NCBI GenBank assembly: GCA_964422835.1
Contig: CAYRCR010000001.1
Span: forward strand, 212,517 to 276,516
Length of the DNA stretch: 64,000 bases
Reading direction: 5' to 3'
Source: an uncultured Gammaproteobacteria bacterium
GTDB lineage: Bacteria > Patescibacteriota > Microgenomatia > Daviesbacterales > UBA10151
The notes under the pieces were generated by a model. It was given only the letters and a program-made list of their open reading frames with translations. It was not told the DNA's origin and made no database searches. Every line of letters starts with the position of its first letter. Position 1 is the first letter of the stretch. Positions 336 through 55,932 of this stretch are shown in pieces. The position numbers were made by a program, and so were the translations under genes.

Positions 336-378
336 CTGCCACCCTTGGGGTGGATTAGCTTGACACCTGCGGAATTTG
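336..378. repeat. REP-like hairpin upstream of RAYT (ccacccttggggtgg + ttgacacc)
   Basis: Inverted repeat CCACCC-TTGG-GGTGG followed by TTGACACC. The same motif recurs downstream of the transposase. Confidence 0.5.
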
Positions 379-396
379 GGATTATGCTAGGGTCAA

Positions 397-1047
397 ATGC
401 CATCGAGAACATTTCCATTTTCTAACGGCTATTTTTACCACATATTTAATAGGGGGAGTGAAAAACGATCTATTTTTGAAACCCAACGCGATTACCAGAG
501 GTTCTTAAAGACACTAAAATATTACCAAATACTCGGGCCCAAACCAAGATTTTCCCGTTTCCCCTCACCCTTATCTAACAAACTGGATGAATCCCAAAAA
601 GTTATCGAAATCATAGCTTTCTGTTTAATGCCCAACCACTTCCATCTGTTGCTCAGACAAAATACGGATCGGGGCATAACTGAATTTACCAGCAAACTTA
701 GTAATAGTTACACCAAATATTACAATACTAAACATACCCGGGTTGGCCCCCTATTCCAGGGAGAATTTAAGGCAGTCCTCATGGAAAGTGATGAACAGCT
801 CGTGCATGTCTCCCGCTATATTCACCTTAATCCCGTAGTTTCCGGTTTAGTCAAACAACCTGACCACTATCAATGGTCTTCATATAGAGAATTTCTCGAT
901 CCAATAAAAAGTGGCGTTTGTCTCAAAGATCCAATACTGGGATTCTTCAAAAATCCTAGTGATTACCAGCAATTTGTTTTAGACCAAATAGGATATGCCC
1001 AAGAACTTGAATTTATAAAACACCAGCTACTGGATGCTGAAGCTTAA
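397..1047 (+). mobile_element. IS200/IS605-family Y1 transposase of REP-associated type (RAYT, TnpA_REP)
   Basis: 216 aa. HxH motif (PNHFHLLL) and a catalytic Tyr region (SRYIHLNPV), typical of IS200-like/RAYT proteins. REP-like hairpins on both sides. Confidence 0.75.
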
Positions 1048-1061
1048 TTCATGATTCGTGC

Positions 1062-1128
1062 GTCCACCTCGGAGGTGGATTGTATTGACACCTAAGGATT
1101 CATGCTGACACCCTTGAGGCGGAAAGCT
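1062..1128. repeat. REP-like hairpins downstream of RAYT (two copies)
   Basis: gtccacctcggaggtggattgtattgacacc and ctgacacccttgaggcgg share the CCACC..GGTGG and TTGACACC elements of the upstream copy. Confidence 0.5.
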
Positions 1129-4750: not shown

Positions 4751-5872
4751 TCATTCTTTTAGTCTGCCAATGTCCGCAGGAGGAGTTGATAAAATTGCCG
4801 GGATCAGTACTTCAAACCGTTTTTCCTTATCAACAATCTTTTCGCGGAAAATCGCCTCTTTATCCGTAGTCTGCCAAAAATTCGCTCCCAAAATCAGGCT
4901 GCCTACACAATTGCCGGAATGGGCAAATCTTAGTACCCCCACAATGGAGTTTTGGGCAATTTGTACTTTAGAATCACACGGAATTTCAATGATGCTGCCG
5001 CCGGAAAAGCTATTGAGAATAACTGTTCCCCCTATCCCCTCTCCCCCGCCTGTAAATTCCAGAGCAACACTCCCCGGCATTTCAAAGTTGTTATAGTAAA
5101 TAAGAGGTGCGCCAAAACGCTCCGGATCCACTATAACTCCCTTGCCTTTTGATACTGTAAATAAGTTATTTGAAATCTTGGGACTGCCGCCATCAACCGT
5201 GATGTATGCTCTGACTGCACTTTCAAAAATGTTATTATAAATAGTTGGGCTGGTGCGATCGGCACAGAGGCTGCATTCACCTGTATTACTAAGGCGTGAA
5301 TCCCGCACGGTAACTTTATTGCCGAGCGACATCTTGCGGTAATTCGATAATTTGCCGAAACTTACAATCCCTTCCTTAATTGAAATTACATTAAATTCAA
5401 CTTTTGTTTCCTCTGTGGCGTTTTCTGCTTCAATAATAATAGGCTGTTCTTTCATCCCCAGGGCATAAACTTTGGCAAAATAAAGGGAAATTTTATTCTG
5501 CTCATCCCAAAAAAATTCGCCGTTTTTTACCCCCATCCATTCTTCTTCCGTATTCATACCCTGTTTCAGATGCCACGGCAGCCAGTCTAAATTAAAAATA
5601 TCCCCCAAGCGTCTGACTGAAATTTTTGTGCCCGGAATAATATTGACGCGTGTTCCCGGCATTGCCCAAATATCCCCCGTAATAGTTATTTCTCCACTCC
5701 AACTTTCATTCCGAAAAATTATGCCTGATTTTTGCCGGTTGGACACTTTTGCTTCCGGTAAAATTTGCGGGACAAAATATGCTACAAAAATCCACACTAA
5801 ACTTACCACCCCTGCCGCTAAACAGAACCGCAGAAACCAATGGAGCCTGAAAAGATATTTATCCCGAAGCAT
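4751..5872 (-). CDS. membrane-anchored hypothetical protein with parallel beta-helix (pectate-lyase-like) repeats
   Basis: N-terminal TM segment. Repeated NNIF/NNLF..V..G beta-helix-like units. Confidence 0.45.
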   Translation of the reverse strand: MLRDKYLFRLHWFLRFCLAAGVVSLVWIFVAYFVPQILPEAKVSNRQKSGIIFRNESWSGEITITGDIWAMPGTRVNIIPGTKISVRRLGDIFNLDWLPWHLKQGMNTEEEWMGVKNGEFFWDEQNKISLYFAKVYALGMKEQPIIIEAENATEETKVEFNVISIKEGIVSFGKLSNYRKMSLGNKVTVRDSRLSNTGECSLCADRTSPTIYNNIFESAVRAYITVDGGSPKISNNLFTVSKGKGVIVDPERFGAPLIYYNNFEMPGSVALEFTGGGEGIGGTVILNSFSGGSIIEIPCDSKVQIAQNSIVGVLRFAHSGNCVGSLILGANFWQTTDKEAIFREKIVDKEKRFEVLIPAILSTPPADIGRLKE

Positions 5873-24548: not shown

Positions 24549-24623
24549 TTGGCTGCGGGACTAGGAGTCGAACCTAGATAGACAAGTTCAGAGCCTGTCG
24601 TCCTACCATTAGACGATCCCGCA
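24549..24623 (-). tRNA. tRNA-Gln (anticodon CTG)
   Basis: Manual cloverleaf fold: acceptor TGCGGGA/TCCCGCA (U1:A72, as in bacterial tRNA-Gln), anticodon loop CTCTGAA, T-arm CTAGG-TTCGACT-CCTAG, 3' GCCA. Confidence 0.85.
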
Positions 24624-24688
24624 TTGTTACAATGAGTGTATTTTATCAGGGTTTGGGCATCAATTAAAGTTTTTGGTATATCCCACCC

Positions 24689-24707
24689 CGGGGGTGGGAG
24701 TTTTGTT
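24689..24707. repeat. perfect GC-rich hairpin tcccaccccgggggtggga (REP-like)
   Basis: Resembles the ccaccc..ggtgg stems next to the RAYT. Confidence 0.3.
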
Positions 24708-48371: not shown

Positions 48372-48659
48372 TTAAAACCGATTCGTTTCTTTTTTTAGAA
48401 GTTTAAAGTCCTCTGTAAAACTATCCGGAGCAAGTTTTTCCAATTCATTTTCCAGGTTGCTGGTTTTATCAAGAGTGATTGGAGTGGGGGTGGGTCCGGC
48501 AGTTGGCGGAGGGGTGGGGGTGGGTTGGAAGGCAGCGGAAGATCCGGGTATCTGCAAGTTTGCAGATATTAAACTCTGATTTACTTTGCGCCCAAAAATT
48601 CCAAACAATAACCCGACAATTACTATACTGCATATAATAAGTATTACTATCTTTTTCAT
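48372..48659 (-). CDS. hypothetical membrane-anchored protein with Pro/Thr-rich linker
   Basis: 95 aa. Confidence 0.35.
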   Translation of the reverse strand: MKKIVILIICSIVIVGLLFGIFGRKVNQSLISANLQIPGSSAAFQPTPTPPPTAGPTPTPITLDKTSNLENELEKLAPDSFTEDFKLLKKETNRF

Positions 48660-49177
48660 TACTTAATTACTCCTTTTAAAATTTGCCCTGAATAGATAAC
48701 TTTAGAGCGGGCAGATAAAAGTTCTCCCTCAAACAATGAAATTAAATTCAATGCATCGTTTTTAATATTTCCCTCCCCATTTAAAATAAAAATATAAATT
48801 TTGGCTGCCTGATAGGCTATGGCCTCGTGGGCATAAGTTATCTGATATCTGGCTTTTTCAATTCCCACCTTGTTATTTCCATTGGAACGAAGTTCATATT
48901 CATCCAGAATCCTAGCTTGGTTAATCATAATTTGGTCCAATTCATCGGCTCGTCTCTTATTAATTTCGGCAATTTTATCGGAAAGAATTTTTAATTTTTG
49001 TTTATGGTCAAAGGAATAATTTTTGACTGTTTTTTCATAGGCTTCCCTTTTGGAATTGACAATATCCTCCGGTGTCACCCTGGCAAAAACCTGCCCTGGC
49101 CATATCATTGCCAATAAAATTAGTAGCATCAATATCACACATCGGATGTGTGATATTGCTAATCTTTTCTTAAACAT
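48659..49177 (-). CDS. hypothetical membrane-anchored protein
   Basis: 172 aa. Its N-terminal codons contain one copy of the palindromic repeat. Confidence 0.35.
   Translation of the reverse strand: MFKKRLAISHIRCVILMLLILLAMIWPGQVFARVTPEDIVNSKREAYEKTVKNYSFDHKQKLKILSDKIAEINKRRADELDQIMINQARILDEYELRSNGNNKVGIEKARYQITYAHEAIAYQAAKIYIFILNGEGNIKNDALNLISLFEGELLSARSKVIYSGQILKGVIK
49134..49157. repeat. palindromic repeat ATCACACATCGGATGTGTGATATT (copy 1)
   Basis: Near-identical copy at 50162-50185. The two copies bracket the frameshifted gene. Confidence 0.6.
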
Positions 49178-49240
49178 GTTCTTATTCTATAATATTGCAG
49201 ATGCTGATTAAACCTCAAAGTTCCCTTTCCATTTGAAATA

Positions 49241-49920
49241 TTAATCCGTCGTCCAAAAATCTGAAGTTGGCTTACCATAAACCAAAGCATTTCTATGTAT
49301 CAAAAGCACTGTTTTATTTACTGTAATTCCGGTTTTCTTAGCAACCTTTTTCGCAAACTCTTTCGCATCTTTTTCGCCCTCTATTTTTATTACCTCCCTG
49401 TCAAATGCAGTGGGTAATTCACCAACTACTAGTCTATCCCCATAAAATTTTTGCATAATCGCAAGATCATATGGAGTCAAACCGCCGATCGACCTAGTGG
49501 ATTGACCCATTTCTTCGTATACAGTTCTATAAAAAGTCGCCGGGGATTTCCCGTCCCAATTTTCTTTTAATCTAACAACACTTGCTCCTCTCGCAGAAGG
49601 AGATATTGCGTCAATATTATCTTTAAAATACTCGTCTATGATTGTCTTAAAAAATCAAGGAGGGCAGAATCATATTCTCTCTTTCCATAAACCAAATCGA
49701 CCCTCATAGCCTTAACCGCTCTTGACACATCATCCGCATTAAAACATAAGCTCTCTGCTACTTGTTCAATGAAACCATCAGAAGAATAATGATGAGGGTA
49801 GCAGCTACTACCAAATACTCTGCTGGAAAGCCCTTCTTCTGCAATACACAGATACAAAGTATCCTTTTTGGTTGCGTTCTGCCCCTGCGCCTCGATGGCC
49901 CGATCTAAATGAACTAACAT
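49241..49920 (-). pseudogene. unknown protein gene split by a frameshift at an A6/T6 homopolymer (track ORFs 49636..49920 and 49241..49510)
   Basis: The downstream ORF's frame stays open upstream to 49654 and overlaps the upstream ORF by 19 nt, across the aaaaaa run at 49648-49653. A single-base shift yields about 230 aa. Confidence 0.5.
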
Positions 49921-50161
49921 TTTTCTCCCCTTAGATCTTCCTCTCCTGATATCATTTACCCAATTCTTATGCGGGGGGTAAATAAGGCCTTTCCTGCCAA
50001 ACTATCCATAAATGGCGAAACTAGCTCGCCCTTGCTACCAACTGGAACTCCAACAATCTCCTCTATTCTGCGTCTGATTATTTCACTCATGAAGGTATTA
50101 TAGCCCGAAAAAGGCAAATTATCAACTATAGGCTCGTTTAACTTCCTGTTTCAGTGGATAT

Positions 50162-50185
50162 ATCACACACCCGATGTGTGATATT
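50162..50185. repeat. palindromic repeat ATCACACACCCGATGTGTGATATT (copy 2)
   Basis: See copy 1. Confidence 0.6.
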
Positions 50186-50195
50186 TTTAGGTTGA

Positions 50196-50212
50196 CATCT
50201 CGAAGGCCATGG
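50196..50212. repeat. 17-nt direct repeat catctcgaaggccatgg (copy 1)
   Basis: Identical 17-mer at 51375-51391. Weaker extended similarity continues on both sides. Confidence 0.5.
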
Positions 50213-50312
50213 CAATGAGCACTTCGACCCCCTCGGCTGCGCTCAGGACAAGCTCGCTCAATATAAATTCCGTCTAACCGGTGAAAAGCTAAACTTTTTA
50301 CATACATTGTTT

Positions 50313-51329
50313 TTATTTTTCAACAAGAAGCCCTCTTTTGCGGAGTTCCCCGATTTTAGCTAACTCCAATGCTTCTACTTGTGGTGGGAGTTGTTCCGCA
50401 ATTCTTAGGGCTTCCAATTTTCCAGATAAATAATCCATTATTTCTTGTTGCGAAGTTGATTGATCAAACCAAGTAAACTCTTTACTATCAGATCGATAAC
50501 CCCAATCTGTCAAACATTGATCGTAATATGGAACAAGAATTGATGGGACAGTTACCCAAATTACTAAATTATCAGGTCTATACCAAATCTGCTTTGGAAT
50601 AGTATCATTGCTAATGTGTTGAGTTACCCTAAGACCCTGGTAAAAGTCAAGAAAAAATTCCCTTAGTTCTGTATTCTCAGAAGCAAAACCCTTATAAGGA
50701 TTGGTTTCATTCCCTGGTAAATTTTGGGGTTCTGGAAATTTCATATTTCCAAAATCAACTCTTATTTGCTCACGAACTTCCGAACTTAAAGCTAACCACT
50801 TCCCTGTGCGGTAATACTCTGTCCTAGGACCACAATCGTAATCACCACCCATAGGAGTACCATGCGAAATGTAGCCTGGGTGATCTATTCCCTTTATTTC
50901 TTCTTTTGTAAAGGTATAGTTGCACCAAAGAACAGCCTTGCTTCCTTCATGACGAATTTCACCTCTACCCCATATGTCACGTACCATCCCGAGTATCTCA
51001 ACAACATTTATTCGATCTAAAAGTTGATCTCGAGCTTCAAGTCCTTTTCTGTATGTTTCTGTATGTTTTTCTAAGAGAAACTCATCATCCTTGGGAACAA
51101 GACAATCATCCGCCCAGTCCAAAGAGTAAACCATCACCCCGCGTCCATGAAAGGACCTCACTTCTCGCTCTTTACCATTTCTAAATAGAAATCCTGGAAT
51201 AACTTTGATAGTACTGATTTTTTCTCCATCTAATCGTGCTCTGAATGCATTAAGTTGAGCTTCTGTTGACATTGAAAGGTTATTTCCCACTCCTGTAGAT
51301 TGTGGTTCAGGTTCAGTTGCCATATGCAC
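50313..51329 (-). CDS. hypothetical 338-aa protein, no recognised family
   Basis: Bracketed by the 17-nt direct repeats. No TM segments. Confidence 0.4.
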   Translation of the reverse strand: MHMATEPEPQSTGVGNNLSMSTEAQLNAFRARLDGEKISTIKVIPGFLFRNGKEREVRSFHGRGVMVYSLDWADDCLVPKDDEFLLEKHTETYRKGLEARDQLLDRINVVEILGMVRDIWGRGEIRHEGSKAVLWCNYTFTKEEIKGIDHPGYISHGTPMGGDYDCGPRTEYYRTGKWLALSSEVREQIRVDFGNMKFPEPQNLPGNETNPYKGFASENTELREFFLDFYQGLRVTQHISNDTIPKQIWYRPDNLVIWVTVPSILVPYYDQCLTDWGYRSDSKEFTWFDQSTSQQEIMDYLSGKLEALRIAEQLPPQVEALELAKIGELRKRGLLVEK

Positions 51330-51374
51330 GAATTTTACTCCAAGCTATAAGCTAAATCAAATTAATTTACCATG

Positions 51375-51391
51375 CATCTCGAAGGCCATGG
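51375..51391. repeat. 17-nt direct repeat catctcgaaggccatgg (copy 2)
   Basis: See copy 1. Confidence 0.5.
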
Positions 51392-51426
51392 TTGTAAACT
51401 TTGTCGAAACAGTGCAAAGCTAACTT

Positions 51427-51500
51427 TTAATTCTCTTCACGAGCCCTATATGTTAAAGCTTCTGCTATATGTTCCGATAAAATGTTTTCCTGATCTGCCA
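51427..51500 (-). repeat. orphan duplicate of the comM/yifB 3' end (encodes ...ADQENILSEHIAEALTYRAREEN*)
   Basis: 59 bp identical to 52245-52303, plus 5 further codons with synonymous changes and their own stop. A direct-repeat partner of the intact gene end, like an att-site pair. Confidence 0.7.
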
Positions 51501-51507
51501 AATTACA

Positions 51508-51846
51508 TCAAGTTCCCACACTGAGTGTGGGAACACAAGGAACAATCTTAATTTCTAATCTAGCTTTTAGAGCTTTGGTAACTTTTTCCAAAGTTTTCAG
51601 TGTATATCCCGTATAATCCGCAGACTCAATTCTGGCAATATTAGACTGTTTTGTCCCAACTAATTTTGCCAATTCTGTTTGAGTTAATCCCATTTTTTCC
51701 CTTAAATCATAGAGTTGGAAAGCAATATCCCAGGCTTGATCTGCTTTATCCATTTCCACCTTAAAAGAAGGATCCTGTTTTAAGAGTTTCTCTGTTAATC
51801 TATCTATATCATCTTTTATTCTTTTCATTTTAATTTTCTCCTTCAT
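51508..51846 (-). CDS. higA: HigA-like antitoxin (XRE-family HTH)
   Basis: HTH LTQTELAKLVGTKQSNIARIE. Overlaps the upstream toxin gene by 17 nt. Confidence 0.7.
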   Translation of the reverse strand: MKEKIKMKRIKDDIDRLTEKLLKQDPSFKVEMDKADQAWDIAFQLYDLREKMGLTQTELAKLVGTKQSNIARIESADYTGYTLKTLEKVTKALKARLEIKIVPCVPTLSVGT

Positions 51847-52186
51847 TTTTTAATTCTTTTAATCTTTTTCTTGCTATTTCCAGCTCATTTACCGGAGTTT
51901 TCTGTTTCTTTTTAATAAATATATGCAATAAAATAATTATCTGCCCTTTATTAAAAGTATAAATAATTCTCAAAATATCTGTTCCTGATTTAGCTCTTAA
52001 TTCCCATAAGTTTGGTTCCAGATACTTCGATAATGGCTCTTTATGATAAATTTTATATCTTAATTTCTCAATTCCCCTACGAGCTTGAGCTACCAAAACC
52101 TTATTACTTTTTTCCAGCTCAAGAAAGAATTTCTCTATCAGATTACTTCCCGATTTATCTTTATAAAAAATTATCTTAAATTCCAT
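51830..52186 (-). CDS. higB: HigB-like toxin (RelE/ParE superfamily, Gp49-like)
   Basis: LWELR...ILRIIYTFNKGQIIILLHIFIKKKQKTPVNELEIARKR pattern matches Gp49/HigB addiction-module killer proteins. Toxin-then-antitoxin order. Confidence 0.7.
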   Translation of the reverse strand: MEFKIIFYKDKSGSNLIEKFFLELEKSNKVLVAQARRGIEKLRYKIYHKEPLSKYLEPNLWELRAKSGTDILRIIYTFNKGQIIILLHIFIKKKQKTPVNELEIARKRLKELKNEGEN

Positions 52187-52229
52187 TTATAATTATATCA
52201 AATTTGATATATAAAACAATACCCCAATT

Positions 52230-53750
52230 TCAATTTTCCTCCCTAGCCCTATATGTTAAAGCTTCTGCTATATGTTCCGATAAAATGTTTTCCTGATCTG
52301 CCAGGTCTGCAATAGTTCTGGAAAGTTTGAGGACCCTGTGATAACCGCGGGCCGAGAGGTTCATTTGGGATATGGCCATTTTTAAAAGATCCATGGCATC
52401 TTGGGTGATCTGGCAAAACTGCTTAATCTGGGCGCTTTTCATTTCTGAATTGGTTAAAATTCCCGAGCCTTGAAATCTTTTATATTGTAACTCCCTAGCT
52501 TTTTTAACCCTTTCACGGACAGTTTTTGAGTCCTCCGGCACTTTTTCCCCGGTTAATTTTTCCACATCCACATATGGCACATCCAAATGAATGTCAATCC
52601 TGTCAAGAAGCGGCCCTGACATCCTTTTTTTATAGCGGGAAATTTGCCCGGGCATGCAGACACAATTTTTATTAGGGCTCCCCAAAAACCCGCAGGGACA
52701 GGGGTTGTGGGCTGCCAAAAGAATAAACTGCGATGGAAAAGTTAAAGATCCGGAAGCGCGTGATATGGTCACTTTGCGGTCTTCCAGAGGCTGGCGCAGT
52801 GCCTCCAGCACTTGTCTGGGAAATTCTGGCAGTTCGTCCATAAAAAGTACACCGCGGTGGGCCATGGACACTTCCCCTGGTTTAATATTATTTCCTCCGC
52901 CAATCATCCCCACATAAGAAGCGGTGTGGTGGGGGCTGCGGAAAGGCCGGGTCGTGACAATTGCCTCACCCGGAGAAAGCGAACCGCAAATGGAATAAAT
53001 TCTGGTTACTTCCAAAGCTTCTTCTTTGGTAAGAGGTGGCAATATGGAAGGGAAGGCCCGGGCCAGCAAGGTTTTTCCAGCTCCTGGCGGGCCTTTTAAA
53101 ATAACATTATGGGCACCAGTTGCTGCAATCTCAAGAGCTCTTTTGGCCATTTCCTGCCCTTTAATATCGCGAAAGTCATATTCATAAAGATTTCCATCGG
53201 ATGAGTTAAATTCCGTCAAGGGTTGCGGTAAAACCTCTTCTGCCCCTGTTAAAAATTTAAAAATTTGTAAAATATCCTCAAAAGGATAAATGTCAATTCC
53301 ATCAACCACTGCCGCTTCCGGGGCGTTTACTTTTGGTACAAATAATCTTTTCAAACCTATTTCTTTTGCTAGTATCGCAAAAGATAAAATTCCATGAGTT
53401 GAACGCAAACTCCCGTCCAAGGACAACTCCCCCACAGCCAAGGTATTTGATAAATCAGAGACCAGTTGACCCGATGCCAGTAAGATTCCCAGGGCAATCG
53501 GCAAATCAAAGGCCGGTCCTTCTTTTGGTAAATCTGCCGGGGCTAAATTAACCGTAATTTTTTTGGGAGGGAGGTCTGCCTCGGAATTCCGAAGGGCCGA
53601 GCGGACCCTTTCTTTTGATTCCTCAACTGCCCTATCTGCCAAACCCACCAGGGTAAATGAAGGCAAGCCCTGCGAGGCAATGTCCACTTCTACCGTGACA
53701 GGAACAGATTCAAGCCCAACATTTGCTCCGGATATTACTTTGGCTAACAT
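52230..53750 (-). CDS. comM: YifB/ComM-family Mg-chelatase-like AAA+ ATPase (start at MLAKVIS)
   Basis: Lon-like N-terminal domain. Walker A GPPGAGKT. Cys cluster NPCPCG...C. Confidence 0.8.
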   Translation of the reverse strand: MLAKVISGANVGLESVPVTVEVDIASQGLPSFTLVGLADRAVEESKERVRSALRNSEADLPPKKITVNLAPADLPKEGPAFDLPIALGILLASGQLVSDLSNTLAVGELSLDGSLRSTHGILSFAILAKEIGLKRLFVPKVNAPEAAVVDGIDIYPFEDILQIFKFLTGAEEVLPQPLTEFNSSDGNLYEYDFRDIKGQEMAKRALEIAATGAHNVILKGPPGAGKTLLARAFPSILPPLTKEEALEVTRIYSICGSLSPGEAIVTTRPFRSPHHTASYVGMIGGGNNIKPGEVSMAHRGVLFMDELPEFPRQVLEALRQPLEDRKVTISRASGSLTFPSQFILLAAHNPCPCGFLGSPNKNCVCMPGQISRYKKRMSGPLLDRIDIHLDVPYVDVEKLTGEKVPEDSKTVRERVKKARELQYKRFQGSGILTNSEMKSAQIKQFCQITQDAMDLLKMAISQMNLSARGYHRVLKLSRTIADLADQENILSEHIAEALTYRAREEN

Positions 53751-54368: not shown

Positions 54369-55171
54369 AAAAGGCACAGGCAGAAATCGGCGTTTTCGGG
54401 GGATCGGGTTTTTACTCACTGTTCCAAAAAGCAAAACAAATCAAACTAACTACCCCGTACGGCAAGCCTTCAGCTCCAATCACTATTGCGCAGATACATG
54501 GCAAAAAAGTAGCTTTCCTGCCAAGGCATGGGGAAAAACACCAGTATCCCCCCCACAAAGTTCCCTATAAAGCCAATATTTATGCCTTTAAGATGCTGGG
54601 GGTTAAAAATATTATTTCTCCTTGCGCCGTCGGGTCTTTGCAGCCTAATATTAAACCCGGGCATTTTGTTATTTTGGATCAGTTTTTTGATAGAACCCAC
54701 GGCCGCGATGACACTTATTATCACGGCCCGGAAACAGTCCATATTGGAGGAGCCAATCCCTATTGCCCCAATTTGCAAAAAATTGCCGCGGAGTCTTGCA
54801 AAAAGTTAAAAATTCCGGTTCACAAAAACGGATCAGTGGTGGTTATCAACGGACCGCGTTTTTCAACAGCTCTCGAGAGCTCTTATTTTGCCAAACTAGG
54901 CTATCAGATTATAAATATGACCCAATGTCCTGAGGCAATTTTAGCCCGGGAGATGGAAATGTGTTTTTTGGGGATAGCGCTAGTTACTGATTGGGATGCG
55001 GGAATTGCCCAAAAAGGCAAAGTAAAACCTGTGGAAACAAAAGATATCTTGAAAATGTTGAATGAAAATAACGAAAAATCAAAGAAATTAATTTTTGAAA
55101 TTATTAAAAATTTACCCCATCAAGAAAGCTGTCCTTGTACATCAGCTTTGAGTAGTGCTAAAGTCAGCTAG
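54365..55171 (+). CDS. mtnP: S-methyl-5'-thioadenosine / purine nucleoside phosphorylase (PNP/MTAP family)
   Basis: IGVFGGSGFY...AFLPRHG N-terminal signature. Confidence 0.8.
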   Translation: MKKAQAEIGVFGGSGFYSLFQKAKQIKLTTPYGKPSAPITIAQIHGKKVAFLPRHGEKHQYPPHKVPYKANIYAFKMLGVKNIISPCAVGSLQPNIKPGHFVILDQFFDRTHGRDDTYYHGPETVHIGGANPYCPNLQKIAAESCKKLKIPVHKNGSVVVINGPRFSTALESSYFAKLGYQIINMTQCPEAILAREMEMCFLGIALVTDWDAGIAQKGKVKPVETKDILKMLNENNEKSKKLIFEIIKNLPHQESCPCTSALSSAKVS

Positions 55172-55932
55172 TGAATGAATTCTGGGGAGAGATTAGTCCC
55201 AATTTGCACCTAGCCGATTTACATATTCATACTTGCCGTTCCGATGGTTTACTTACGCCCCAAGAAGTAATCGATCAAGCTGTGAAACTACACCTTTCAG
55301 CCATTGCCATAACTGATCATGAAGTAACCGATTCTGCCCTTGAGACAAGAGAACTAGCCAAGAACTACCCGCTTGAAGTTGTTACGGGTAGTGAAATCAC
55401 GACTCATAACGGCCACCTTTTGGGACTTTACCTTGAGAGAAATATTCCCAGTGGTAAAAAAGTTGAATGGACTATTGATGCAATCCATGACCAGAATGGG
55501 TTAGCCATTGTTCCTCATCCCATGTACAAATGGACTAAGTCACTCACTGAAAATAAAATTTTATCCATTATTCAAGGTTCAAGCGATATTTACTTTGATG
55601 GTTTTGAAATATTCAATGGCGGGGTTGCCGTAAACCCATGGACACTTGCCAACCAGGATGCCAAAGATTTTTATTATCAGTATCAGAAAAGTTTGGGCGC
55701 ACCACTTGGTGGCAGTGATACCCATTTTCGTTTGATCGGGCGGGGTCTAACCGGATATCGGGGTAATCTTTTTGAAAGCATTAAAACAAAGCAAACAACT
55801 GTATTTTTTAATACTGTAAAAGAACAGATTACATTGCAGGAATTTGCCCAGCAATTGACATTAGGGCTCATTGTTGAGCCGGGGCGGAGATTCAGGCGTT
55901 ATACTGAAAGACACTTAAATAATAGAGAATAA
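55171..55932 (+). CDS. PHP-domain metal-dependent phosphoesterase
   Basis: LADLHIHTCRSDG...AITDHE PHP motifs. Confidence 0.75.
   Translation: MNEFWGEISPNLHLADLHIHTCRSDGLLTPQEVIDQAVKLHLSAIAITDHEVTDSALETRELAKNYPLEVVTGSEITTHNGHLLGLYLERNIPSGKKVEWTIDAIHDQNGLAIVPHPMYKWTKSLTENKILSIIQGSSDIYFDGFEIFNGGVAVNPWTLANQDAKDFYYQYQKSLGAPLGGSDTHFRLIGRGLTGYRGNLFESIKTKQTTVFFNTVKEQITLQEFAQQLTLGLIVEPGRRFRRYTERHLNNRE

What the first reader, a model, noticed from the sequence alone, without database searches (positions are those of the whole stretch)
49130..52310. Array of three repeat-bounded cassettes ending in the 3' end of comM: candidate mobile/defence hotspot
Three adjacent segments are each bounded by their own repeat pair. 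(i) 49134-50185: 24-nt palindromic repeats (ATCACACAYCSGATGTGTGATATT) flank a single unknown gene disrupted at an A6 homopolymer. (ii) 50196-51391: identical 17-nt direct repeats (catctcgaaggccatgg) flank an unknown 338-aa protein. (iii) 51427-52303: a 59-bp exact duplication of the comM/yifB 3' end flanks a HigB/HigA toxin-antitoxin pair. The duplicated copy also carries 5 further synonymously diverged codons and its own stop. The comM duplication is an integration signature of the attL/attR type; comM is a known island target, for example AbaR in Acinetobacter. No integrase is present. The unknown proteins in (i) and (ii) are candidates for an undescribed defence or addiction function.
Basis: partly seen in the sequence, partly recalled or inferred. 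Interest (0 to 1): 0.75.

Follow-up and report, generated by a model that had tools for sequence, protein, structure and literature searches.

The report
Mosaic accessory islet behind comM-higBA
Downstream of the comM gene of an uncultured Daviesbacteria-like (CPR) bacterium lies an old toxin-antitoxin pair followed by a 2.4-kb lineage-specific patch of two orphan genes. The patch is joined by REP-type hairpin repeats and short duplications, so it is a small recombination hotspot rather than a new defence system or a freshly integrated island.

Summary
All three repeat pairs are real, sit at the stated coordinates, occur nowhere else in the 64-kb window and exceed chance. The interpretation needs revising.

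- **Palindromes.** The 24-nt palindromes (49130-49158, 50160-50185) and an unreported third one (51512-51534) are not cassette-specific ends. They belong to a REP-like hairpin family that flanks RAYT (Y1/HUH transposase) genes in this window (397-1047) and in a related Daviesbacteria contig.
- **higBA.** It is not recent cargo of the comM duplication. comM-higBA is syntenic in three other lineages that lack the duplication.
- **Lineage-specific DNA.** Homology to all relatives stops at the third palindrome, inside the last codons of higA. It resumes in the 172-aa gene, leaving about 2.4 kb (51538 to about 49130) specific to this lineage.
- **Content of that segment.** It begins with the 76-nt comM 3' copy. 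It carries a 338-aa orphan gene with its own promoter, probably leaderless, and a second orphan gene dead from two frameshifts, not one.
- **338-aa unit.** Direct repeats of unrelated sequence bracket it in three independent contigs, which suggests a mobile single-gene cassette.
- **Negatives.** No integrase, and no defence, phage or structural match.

This is a modest variant of known kinds.

The parts
52230..53750 (-). comM/yifB, intact (506 aa, starts MLAKV)
   Evidence: TIGR00368 at 608 bits. Pfam ChlI, Mg_chelatase and Mg_chelatase_C. 78% aa identity to L001.
52228..52303 (-). comM 3' end, working copy. The exact 59-nt core is 52245-52303. The last 5 codons plus TGA are 52230-52244.
52173..52211 (-). 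higBA promoter (TTGATA-N17-TAAGAT) overlapping the palindrome TATATCAAATTTGATATA at 52194-52211. This is the probable HigA operator and is conserved in L001, L167 and L170.
51830..52186 (-). higB toxin (118 aa, Gp49/RelE-ParE superfamily)
   Evidence: Pfam PF05973, E 2.9e-21. 84-87% nt identity to L001, L167 and L170.
51508..51828 (-). higA antitoxin (HTH_3). An upstream in-frame ATG at 51846 is also possible. The last ~10 codons are replaced by the P3 palindrome.
   Evidence: Pfam HTH_3, E 1.8e-10. A C-terminal tail conserved in L001, L167 and L170 is lost here.
51512..51534 (.). REP-like palindrome P3 (TTCCCACAC-N3-GTGTGGGAA type). It marks the proximal edge of the lineage-specific segment.
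   Evidence: Counterparts at L001 7847-7867 and L170 3847-3867. Homology to all relatives ends at 51538-51545.
51425..51500 (-). Ectopic copy of the comM 3' end. The 59-nt exact core is 51442-51500. The last 5 codons differ only synonymously, and it has its own TAA at 51427-51429.
51375..51428 (-). Upstream copy of the ~52-nt repeat bracketing the 338-aa unit: S34b at 51395-51428 plus the 17-nt exact part at 51375-51391.
51332..51360 (-). Promoter of the 338-aa gene (TTGATT-N17-TAAAAT), 8 nt before the ATG. The transcript is probably leaderless. The upstream sequence is conserved across the family.
50313..51323 (-). 338-aa-family orphan gene (336 aa from the ATG, 338 aa from the GTG at 51329). 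The conserved DNA unit is 51362-50305.
   Evidence: 37 homologues and no Pfam match. Only 30 representatives in 1.84e9 proteins. AF2 pLDDT 79.8, with no structural match. Unit limits come from L179 and L180.
50196..50297 (-). Downstream copy of the repeat: S34a at 50264-50297, a 51-nt GC-rich insert at 50213-50263, and the 17-nt exact part at 50196-50212.
50160..50185 (.). REP-like palindrome P2 (ATATCACAC-N7-GTGTGATAT type)
49241..50125 (-). Decayed orphan gene with its own promoter (TTGATA-N17-TATAAT, 50125-50097) and ATG at 50090. It has two frameshifts. The repaired product of ~283 aa is 37% identical end to end to P0038.
49130..49158 (.). REP-like palindrome P1, at the distal edge of the lineage-specific segment. 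It lies inside the first codons of the 172-aa ORF and is 1 nt different from L001 9238-9262.
48659..49177 (-). 172-aa secreted protein gene. Conserved flank: homology to L001 and L171 resumes at about 49084-49090.
339..1079 (+). RAYT-like Y1/HUH transposase gene (397-1047), flanked by the hairpins CCACCCTTGGGGTGG (339-353) and TCCACCTCGGAGGTGGA (1063-1079). It is the only transposase or recombinase found in the window.
   Evidence: Pfam Y1_Tnp at 35.2 bits. NCBIfam REP_Tyr_transpos at 60.6 bits, below its cut-off of 80. 55% identical to the L001 RAYT. Hairpins.

Best explanation
The locus is a small mosaic of accessory genes in the variable stretch downstream of comM in a Daviesbacteria-like CPR genome. 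Its parts have different histories.

1. comM-higBA is an old, vertically inherited pair. higBA is a self-regulated type II toxin-antitoxin module.
2. About 2.4 kb (51538 to about 49130) is specific to this lineage. It replaces whatever lay between the last ~10 codons of higA and the start of the 172-aa gene.
3. Its two edges and its internal boundary are each occupied by a REP-type hairpin. This hairpin family flanks the RAYT (Y1/HUH transposase) genes of this lineage.
4. Inference: the hairpins served as the breakage and joining points, and they now separate independently transcribed single-gene units. RAYT action in trans, or hairpin-provoked illegitimate recombination, are both possible.
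5. The segment starts with a 76-nt copy of the comM 3' end. Its last five codons are a synonymous variant of the working end. I read this copy as the joint between two alternative 'downstream-of-comM' haplotypes. One carried higBA. In the other, comM was followed directly by the 338-aa cassette. They were stacked in tandem by a recombination anchored in, or converted across, the 59-nt identical core.
6. The 338-aa gene is a roughly 1.06-kb unit with its own promoter, probably leaderless. It appears to move on its own and to sit between duplicated target sequence.
7. The second orphan gene is decaying.
For: **Shown**
- The repeats are real and unique in the window.
- L001 has five type-A palindromes and one P3-type palindrome within 4.5 kb. 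Two of them immediately flank a Y1_Tnp gene.
- The window has a 55%-identical RAYT that is also flanked by hairpins of the same general form.
- The hairpin family is seen only in the window, L001 and L170/L171 loci.
- comM-higBA synteny is present in L001, L167/L168 and L170-L175 without a comM duplication.
- Homology to all of these ends at 51538-51545 and resumes at about 49090.
- The HigA tail is conserved in the relatives and replaced here.
- higBA divergence scales with comM divergence in all pairs.
- The window's two comM cores are identical, while relatives differ from them at 13-19 of 61 positions. The 5 differences in the last 17 nt are all synonymous.
- The 338-aa unit shares only 51362-50305 with L179 and L180 and has a conserved promoter.
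- The unit is bracketed by unrelated direct repeats in the window, in L083 (24 nt, 92%) and in L180 (45 nt, 84%).
- The second orphan gene has two frameshifts.
- No integrase was found.
Against: - Only 64 kb of this genome was available. The REP family is represented by 2 type-A copies, 1 P3 copy and a few looser hairpins, so genome-wide dispersal is not shown.
- The RAYT scores below the NCBIfam cut-off, and its own flanking hairpins differ in stem sequence from P1 and P2.
- No REPIN doublets and no conserved flanking tetranucleotide were seen.
- No higBA-less or cassette-less allele of this species was recovered. The metagenome scan gave nothing closer than 70% comM identity. The proposed second haplotype is therefore hypothetical.
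- A role of the hairpins in recombination is inferred from position only.
- The direct repeats around the 338-aa unit are imperfect and were seen in 3 of about 8 contexts. Several of the others had flanks too short to judge.
Confidence: 0.55

Rival explanations
1. higBA is a small integrative cassette that targets the 3' end of comM and carries its own last five comM codons. The two 59-nt cores are attL and attR, and integration or excision is catalysed in trans. Relatives would carry older copies whose attR has been lost.
For: - There is a perfect 59-nt core followed by five purely synonymous differences and a separate stop codon. That is what an element restoring its target gene would leave.
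- This HigB type is widespread at 65-76% identity across many CPR lineages.
- higBA has lower GC (27-33%) than comM in every genome compared.
Against: - comM-higBA with a homologous intergenic region is present in three other lineages without any second comM copy.
- higBA distances track comM distances, the pattern of vertical descent.
- The core is no better conserved between species than the rest of comM, at 13-19 of 61 differences. The perfect identity is therefore much younger than higBA's residence at this site.
- The right-hand junction is not a clean gene end. It is a truncated higA joined to a REP hairpin.
- There is no integrase in 64 kb.
Confidence: 0.2
2. The palindromes are recombinase sites of the dif/pdif kind, and the region is an array of Xer-type modules of one gene or one TA pair each, as on Acinetobacter plasmids.
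For: P1 can be read as 11-7-11. The palindromes bracket single-gene units, and one such palindrome adjoins the TA pair.
Against: - The same palindromes directly flank a Y1 transposase gene in L001, and analogous hairpins flank its homologue in the window.
- The L001 copies are perfect 11-3-11 hairpins, not 11-6-11 sites.
- No tyrosine recombinase was found in the window.
- There is no alternation of two half-site types.
Confidence: 0.07
3. The region is an integron-like cassette array without an integrase (CALIN), with the palindromes acting as attC sites.
For: The layout is ORF followed by palindrome, repeated three times. From general knowledge, TA cassettes are common in chromosomal integrons.
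Against: - The palindromes are 23-29 nt perfect hairpins. They lack the R''/L''-L'/R' layout, the RYYYAAC...GTTRRRY boxes and the 57-141 nt length of attC (sequence read directly).
- Each gene has its own promoter.
- No IntI was found.
Confidence: 0.03
4. The repeats are assembly or chance artefacts.
For: none
Against: Four independent assemblies agree, and shuffles give expectations of 0.1 or less.
Confidence: 0.01

Closest known systems
REP elements with their RAYT (REP-associated tyrosine transposase), as in Enterobacteria and Pseudomonas (PMC5581495, PMC3116915)
   Same: - Short GC-richer palindromes sit between genes.
- Copies directly flank a Y1/HUH transposase gene that has the HUH motif (NHFHLL) and the catalytic Tyr (RYIHLNP).
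- The hairpin sequence differs between genomes along with the RAYT.
   Different: - The host is a CPR (Microgenomates) lineage.
- Few copies were seen, no REPIN doublets and no conserved flanking tetranucleotide.
- The RAYT scores below the NCBIfam equivalog cut-off.
- The copies sit at the edges of a lineage-specific insertion.
HigB/HigA (Gp49-type toxin with Xre/HTH_3 antitoxin) type II toxin-antitoxin modules
   Same: The toxin gene comes first and is adjacent to the antitoxin gene. There is a palindromic operator in the promoter. The Pfam families match.
   Different: The antitoxin C-terminus is rewritten by a hairpin insertion. The module is fixed next to comM across several lineages rather than obviously mobile.
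Integrative islands that insert into the 3' end of a gene and restore it (attL/attR direct repeats)
   Same: There is a direct repeat of the target gene's 3' end, and the displaced copy is a synonymous variant with its own stop.
   Different: There is no integrase. The DNA between the repeats is ancestral in relatives. One junction is a truncated gene plus a REP hairpin.
AbaR/Tn6022-type islands in comM of Acinetobacter
   Same: Only the name of the neighbouring gene.
   Different: From general knowledge, those are Tn7-like transposons that interrupt comM. Here comM is intact and no transposition genes are present.
pdif modules (Xer-site-flanked gene modules on Acinetobacter plasmids)
   Same: Single-gene or TA units lie between short palindromic sites.
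   Different: The sites here associate with a Y1 transposase and are perfect hairpins. No Xer link was found.

Membership tests
REP/RAYT system | Short (about 20-40 nt) palindromic repeat present in several copies between genes | tested here: met
   P1, P2 and P3 in the window. Six copies in 4.5 kb of L001 and one in L170. The whole genome was not available, so total copy number is unknown.
REP/RAYT system | Copies immediately flank a Y1/HUH (IS200-like) transposase gene | tested here: met
   L001: 4754-4778 and 5474-5498 flank the gene at 4814-5464. Window: 339-353 and 1063-1079 flank the gene at 397-1047.
REP/RAYT system | The transposase meets the curated RAYT model | tested here: inconclusive
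   NCBIfam NF047646 gives 60.6 and 50.0 bits against a cut-off of 80. Pfam Y1_Tnp is above its cut-off. HUH and Tyr motifs are present.
REP/RAYT system | REPIN doublets or a conserved flanking cleavage motif | tested here: not met
   No paired REPs at short spacing, and no conserved bases outside the palindrome.
HigBA type II toxin-antitoxin | Gp49/HigB-type toxin next to an HTH antitoxin, toxin first, with a palindromic operator | tested here: met
   PF05973 E 2.9e-21 and PF01381 E 1.8e-10. Operator at 52194-52211, conserved in relatives.
HigBA type II toxin-antitoxin | Toxicity and neutralisation | not testable with these tools
   Needs expression experiments.
Integrative element at the comM 3' end (attL/attR) | Direct repeats of the target's 3' end flank the element, and the target gene is restored | tested here: met
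   76-nt repeat with a 59-nt exact core. Both ends encode AREEN*.
Integrative element at the comM 3' end (attL/attR) | Element-encoded or nearby integrase | tested here: not met
   None among the window's ORFs.
Integrative element at the comM 3' end (attL/attR) | The DNA between the repeats is absent from close relatives (empty site) | tested here: not met
   higBA is present at the same place in L001, L167/L168 and L170-L175, without a second repeat.
Integron cassette array / CALIN | attC sites (57-141 nt, R''-L''...L'-R' with RYYYAAC/GTTRRRY) and promoterless cassettes | tested here: not met
   The hairpins are 23-29 nt and perfect, without those boxes. Both orphan genes have their own promoters. 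No attC model was available to run.
AbaR-type comM island | Transposon interrupting comM, with Tn7-like transposition genes | tested here: not met
   comM is full length. No such genes are present.
Known anti-phage defence systems | Match to a PADLOC family other than the TA/HTH components | tested here: not met
   No hit for the 338-aa protein, the pseudogene fragments or the 172-aa protein.

The most novel reading that the evidence does not exclude
The 338-aa family may be a new kind of non-autonomous single-gene mobile cassette in CPR bacteria. The unit is about 1.06 kb: its own promoter plus a probably leaderless ORF with sharply conserved N- and C-termini. It would insert next to gene ends and leave long target duplications of 17-52 nt. 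It would be moved in trans, conceivably by the lineage's RAYT/REP machinery or by an unknown recombinase. The comM-higBA flank would be one of its landing sites.
Probability: 0.15. Interest if true: 0.6.

Novelty: new variant of a known kind. Interest (0 to 1): 0.35.

Why it matters
- **Caution for repeat-based calls.** Repeat-bounded 'cassettes' read from raw sequence can be a mixture of unrelated things. Here they are an ancestral toxin-antitoxin pair, host REP hairpins and recombination scars. Synteny with relatives is needed before calling an integration.
- **REP/RAYT in CPR.** The locus gives a concrete example of a REP/RAYT-type hairpin family in a CPR lineage, sitting exactly at the breakpoints of lineage-specific DNA. 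The two-of-three-term literature search listed no paper that mentions Patescibacteria, so this may be under-described.
- **A tractable orphan family.** The locus singles out a very small family (30 representatives in 1.84 billion proteins) that has its own promoter and repeat-flanked copies in three genomes. That is a workable candidate for studying how accessory genes move in genomes with few classical mobile elements.
- **Function.** No function can be claimed for either orphan protein.

Tried and rejected
- **Phage origin.** No relative was found in IMG/VR.
- **Pseudogene product.** There is one homologue only. The AlphaFold model of P0038 was unusable at pLDDT 45, and there was no PDB sequence hit.
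- **Empty site.** The genome scan and metagenome scan with comM found no strain closer than 78% and 70% identity. No higBA-less or cassette-less allele of this species was seen.
- **Recent horizontal transfer of higBA.** I first suspected this because higBA is 82-94% identical in nt against 70-84% for comM. I rejected it because the two scale together in all six pairs and the comM core itself is not better conserved.
- **Palindromes travelling with the 338-aa gene.** Rejected: homologue loci L083-L085, L176 and L177 lack them.
- **Structured RNA in the spacers or repeats.** Rfam gave nothing, and folds of the repeats are not better than shuffles.
- **The GC-rich 51-nt insert as a dispersed repeat.** No other copy was found in the window or the loci.
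- **Integron and pdif readings.** Rejected on site anatomy; see the rival explanations.

Full report
**Observation.** All repeats exist where stated.
- The repeat finder gives the comM 3' duplication as 51425-51500 vs 52228-52303, 76 nt at 93%. The exact core is 59 nt.
- The 17-nt direct repeat is at 50196-50212 and 51375-51391.
- The palindromes are at 49130-49158 and 50160-50185.
- None recurs in the 64-kb window, and shuffles expect 0.1 matches or fewer.
- The arrangement is identical in three other assemblies from other samples: L081 and L082 at 100%, L166 at 99.96%. Assembly error is excluded.

Three corrections are needed. The broken gene has two frameshifts. The 17-nt repeat is the exact part of a roughly 52-nt imperfect duplication whose downstream copy is split by a 51-nt GC-rich insert. 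A further palindrome, GTTCCCACACTGAGTGTGGGAAC (51512-51534), lies between higA and the second comM copy.

**Gene content (all on the minus strand).**
- comM (52230-53750): YifB family, 608 bits.
- higB (51830-52186): Gp49, E 2.9e-21.
- higA (51508-51828): HTH_3, E 1.8e-10.
- An orphan gene of 336-338 aa (50313-51323).
- A decayed orphan gene (49241-50090).
- A 172-aa secreted-protein gene (48659-49177).

The closest genomes are Candidatus Daviesbacteria/Microgenomates MAGs, with comM at 78% aa identity to L001 and 69% to L002.

**The palindromes are REP-like elements.**
- A BLAST of the window against L001 picked up a near-identical palindrome in a different intergenic region.
- A pattern search then found five copies of ATATCACAC-N7-GTGTGATAT and one TTCCCACAC-N3-GTGTGGGAA within 4.5 kb of L001. 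Each sits in a gap between genes.
- Two of them sit 36 nt and 10 nt from the ends of a 216-aa gene that matches Pfam Y1_Tnp and, below cut-off, NCBIfam REP-associated tyrosine transposase.
- The window has a 55%-identical homologue at 397-1047 with the HUH motif and the catalytic tyrosine.
- That homologue is also flanked on both sides by hairpins of the same general form: CCACCCTTGGGGTGG and TCCACCTCGGAGGTGGA.
- This hairpin family was seen only in the window, L001 and L170/L171. It is absent from the L167, L002, L003, L086, L088 and L089 loci and from the loci carrying homologues of the 338-aa gene.
- Flanking of a single-copy Y1 transposase by short palindromes is the hallmark of RAYT/REP systems (PMC5581495).
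- So P1, P2 and P3 are host-lineage REP-type hairpins, not the private ends of one cassette.

**Comparative anatomy.**
- comM-higB-higA, with a homologous intergenic promoter/operator palindrome, is present in L001, in L167/L168 (753-837-kb Microgenomates contigs) and in L170-L175.
- None of these has a second comM end.
- Nucleotide homology between the window and each of them runs from comM through higA and stops at 51538-51545, the edge of P3. It resumes at about 49084-49090 inside the 172-aa gene.
- The 12-13-residue HigA tail is conserved among the relatives and is replaced in the window by the hairpin.
- Between higA and the 172-aa homologue, the relatives carry a GNAT gene (L001, L170/L171) or NUDIX plus an inverted block (L167).
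- More distant genomes have other content or almost none: L002 has vapBC, L086 has three genes, and L088 goes nearly straight to the conserved small membrane-protein gene.
- The stretch downstream of comM is therefore a genuine variable spot. The window-specific DNA is the 2.4 kb beyond higA, not higBA.

**Is higBA a recent arrival?**
- higBA is more similar between genomes (82-94% nt) than comM (70-84%).
- The two scale together in all six pairwise comparisons, including third codon positions.
- The 59-61-nt comM core differs from the relatives at 13-19 of 61 positions, like the rest of comM.
- This is the pattern of vertical descent with slower change in a very AT-rich module. It is not the pattern of recent transfer.

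**The second comM end.**
- The two window copies are identical over 59 nt. They then differ at 5 of 17 positions.
- All five differences are synonymous, including TGA against TAA, and both copies read AREEN*.
- Uniform drift of a fresh duplicate cannot give 0/59 and 5/17. My calculation for all five changes falling in the last 17 of 76 positions is about 5e-4. Drift also would not give only synonymous changes.
- The second copy therefore once terminated a working comM in another allele or lineage, and the core/tail boundary is a recombination boundary.
- The copy is contiguous with the sequence duplicated around the 338-aa unit. I infer an alternative haplotype in which comM was followed directly by that cassette.
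- The window would then carry the higBA haplotype and this haplotype stacked in tandem, joined at a REP hairpin plus 11 nt.
- The alternative is that higBA is itself an att-bounded cassette cycling in this population. This is not excluded and is kept as the main rival. It is weakened by the synteny data, by the truncated higA at the junction and by the lack of any integrase.

**The 338-aa unit.**
- The family is tiny and sharply bounded. There are 37 homologues in the 5.8-billion-protein search and 30 representatives in 1.84 billion proteins, 29 of them below 1e-30.
- The N-terminus (MAxEPEPxSTGQGSN) and the C-terminal helices are conserved, and the middle is variable.
- The AlphaFold model is fair (pLDDT 79.8) but matches nothing in PDB or BFVD.
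- No profile library recognises the protein.
- DNA homology to the closest homologue loci (L179 at 80.7% nt, L180 at 75%) covers only 51362-50305, that is, promoter to stop.
- The promoter TTGATT-N17-TAAAAT ends 8 nt before the ATG, and this upstream sequence is conserved across distant family members. The transcript is probably leaderless.
- Neighbours elsewhere are a zeta toxin, GIY-YIG genes, Vsr plus a Dcm methylase, methyltransferases and an M23 peptidase. This is typical accessory company.
- In three independent contigs the unit lies between direct repeats of unrelated sequence at similar spacing:
  - the window: 17 nt exact plus 25/34, spacing 1179;
  - L083: 24 nt at 92%, spacing 1139;
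  - L180: 45 nt at 84%, spacing 1210.
- This suggests a self-contained cassette that lands with duplication of the target. The sample is small, however, and some flanks were too short to judge.

**The decayed gene.** P0038, the only homologue at 278 aa, aligns to the window in three frames, and the repaired ORF aligns to it end to end at 37% identity. The gene has a strong promoter, TTGATA-N17-TATAAT, 6 nt before its ATG. Its function is unknown.

**How it most likely works.**
- Shown: the anatomy and the history described above.
- Inferred:
  - higBA acts as an addiction module that stabilises the neighbourhood.
  - The REP hairpins are the places where DNA was broken and joined, either by RAYT acting in trans on single-stranded hairpins or by hairpin-provoked illegitimate recombination.
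  - The hairpins now separate independently transcribed units.
  - The comM core provided the homology for stacking or converting two alternative haplotypes.
  - The 338-aa unit entered by a mechanism that duplicates 17-52 nt of target.

**Comparison and verdict.**
- The pieces belong to known kinds: a type II TA module, REP/RAYT-type hairpins, a gene-3'-end duplication and orphan accessory genes.
- What is somewhat new is the combination in a CPR genome, the position of REP hairpins exactly at the breakpoints, and the repeat-flanked orphan cassette family.
- It is not an AbaR-like island, not an integron array and not a recognisable defence system.
- Interest is moderate to low at 0.35. The most novel surviving reading, a new non-autonomous single-gene cassette type, has a probability of about 0.15.

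Noticed in passing
window 339-1079: RAYT-like Y1/HUH transposase gene (397-1047) flanked by two hairpins. Each hairpin is followed by GGATT-N3-TTGACACCT. It is the only transposase found in the window, 48 kb from the finding.
   Followed up: partly
window 50213-50263: 51-nt GC-rich insert (about 63% GC in a ~40% region) splitting the downstream copy of the S34+D17 repeat. There is no other copy in the window or in 182 loci. Origin unexplained.
   Followed up: partly
window 24681-24699: Hairpin TCCCACCCCGGGGGTGGGA of the same general form as the REP family, 58 nt from tRNA-Gln (24550-24623).
   Followed up: no
L001 4754-9262: A 4.5-kb stretch upstream of comM in the Daviesbacteria relative has a palindrome in nearly every intergenic gap. 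The genes between them are RAYT, a 260-aa orphan, an rve-type transposase, an MTS methyltransferase, a CYTH gene and a DUF5674 gene. This is a much denser REP field than in the window.
   Followed up: partly
window 49130-49158 vs L001 9238-9262: REP copy P1 differs by one base from an L001 copy, although comM of the two genomes is only 71% identical in nt. The hairpin is either strongly constrained or exchanged between the lineages.
   Followed up: no
window 52230-53750 vs relatives: comM GC is 46% in the window against 37-39% in L001, L167 and L170, while higBA stays at 25-33% in all four.
   Followed up: no
L083 62-85, 2908-2931, 4047-4070: Two paralogues of the 338-aa family on one 6.6-kb contig. 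Each is preceded by the same small hairpin (GAGGGGTGCAACCCC) plus promoter, and a third hairpin copy follows the second paralogue.
   Followed up: partly
L181 1-85: The only intact homologue of the decayed gene (P0038) starts about 50 nt after what looks like the 3' end of a tRNA gene (GGTTCGAGTCC...). It has the same type of promoter 6 nt before its ATG.
   Followed up: no
L167 9180-10792 vs window 48372-49177 and 55171-55932: In the 753-kb Microgenomates contig, the PHP gene and the 170-aa/94-aa pair lie inverted downstream of higBA. In the window, PHP is upstream of comM. This indicates a local inversion or rearrangement around comM.
   Followed up: no
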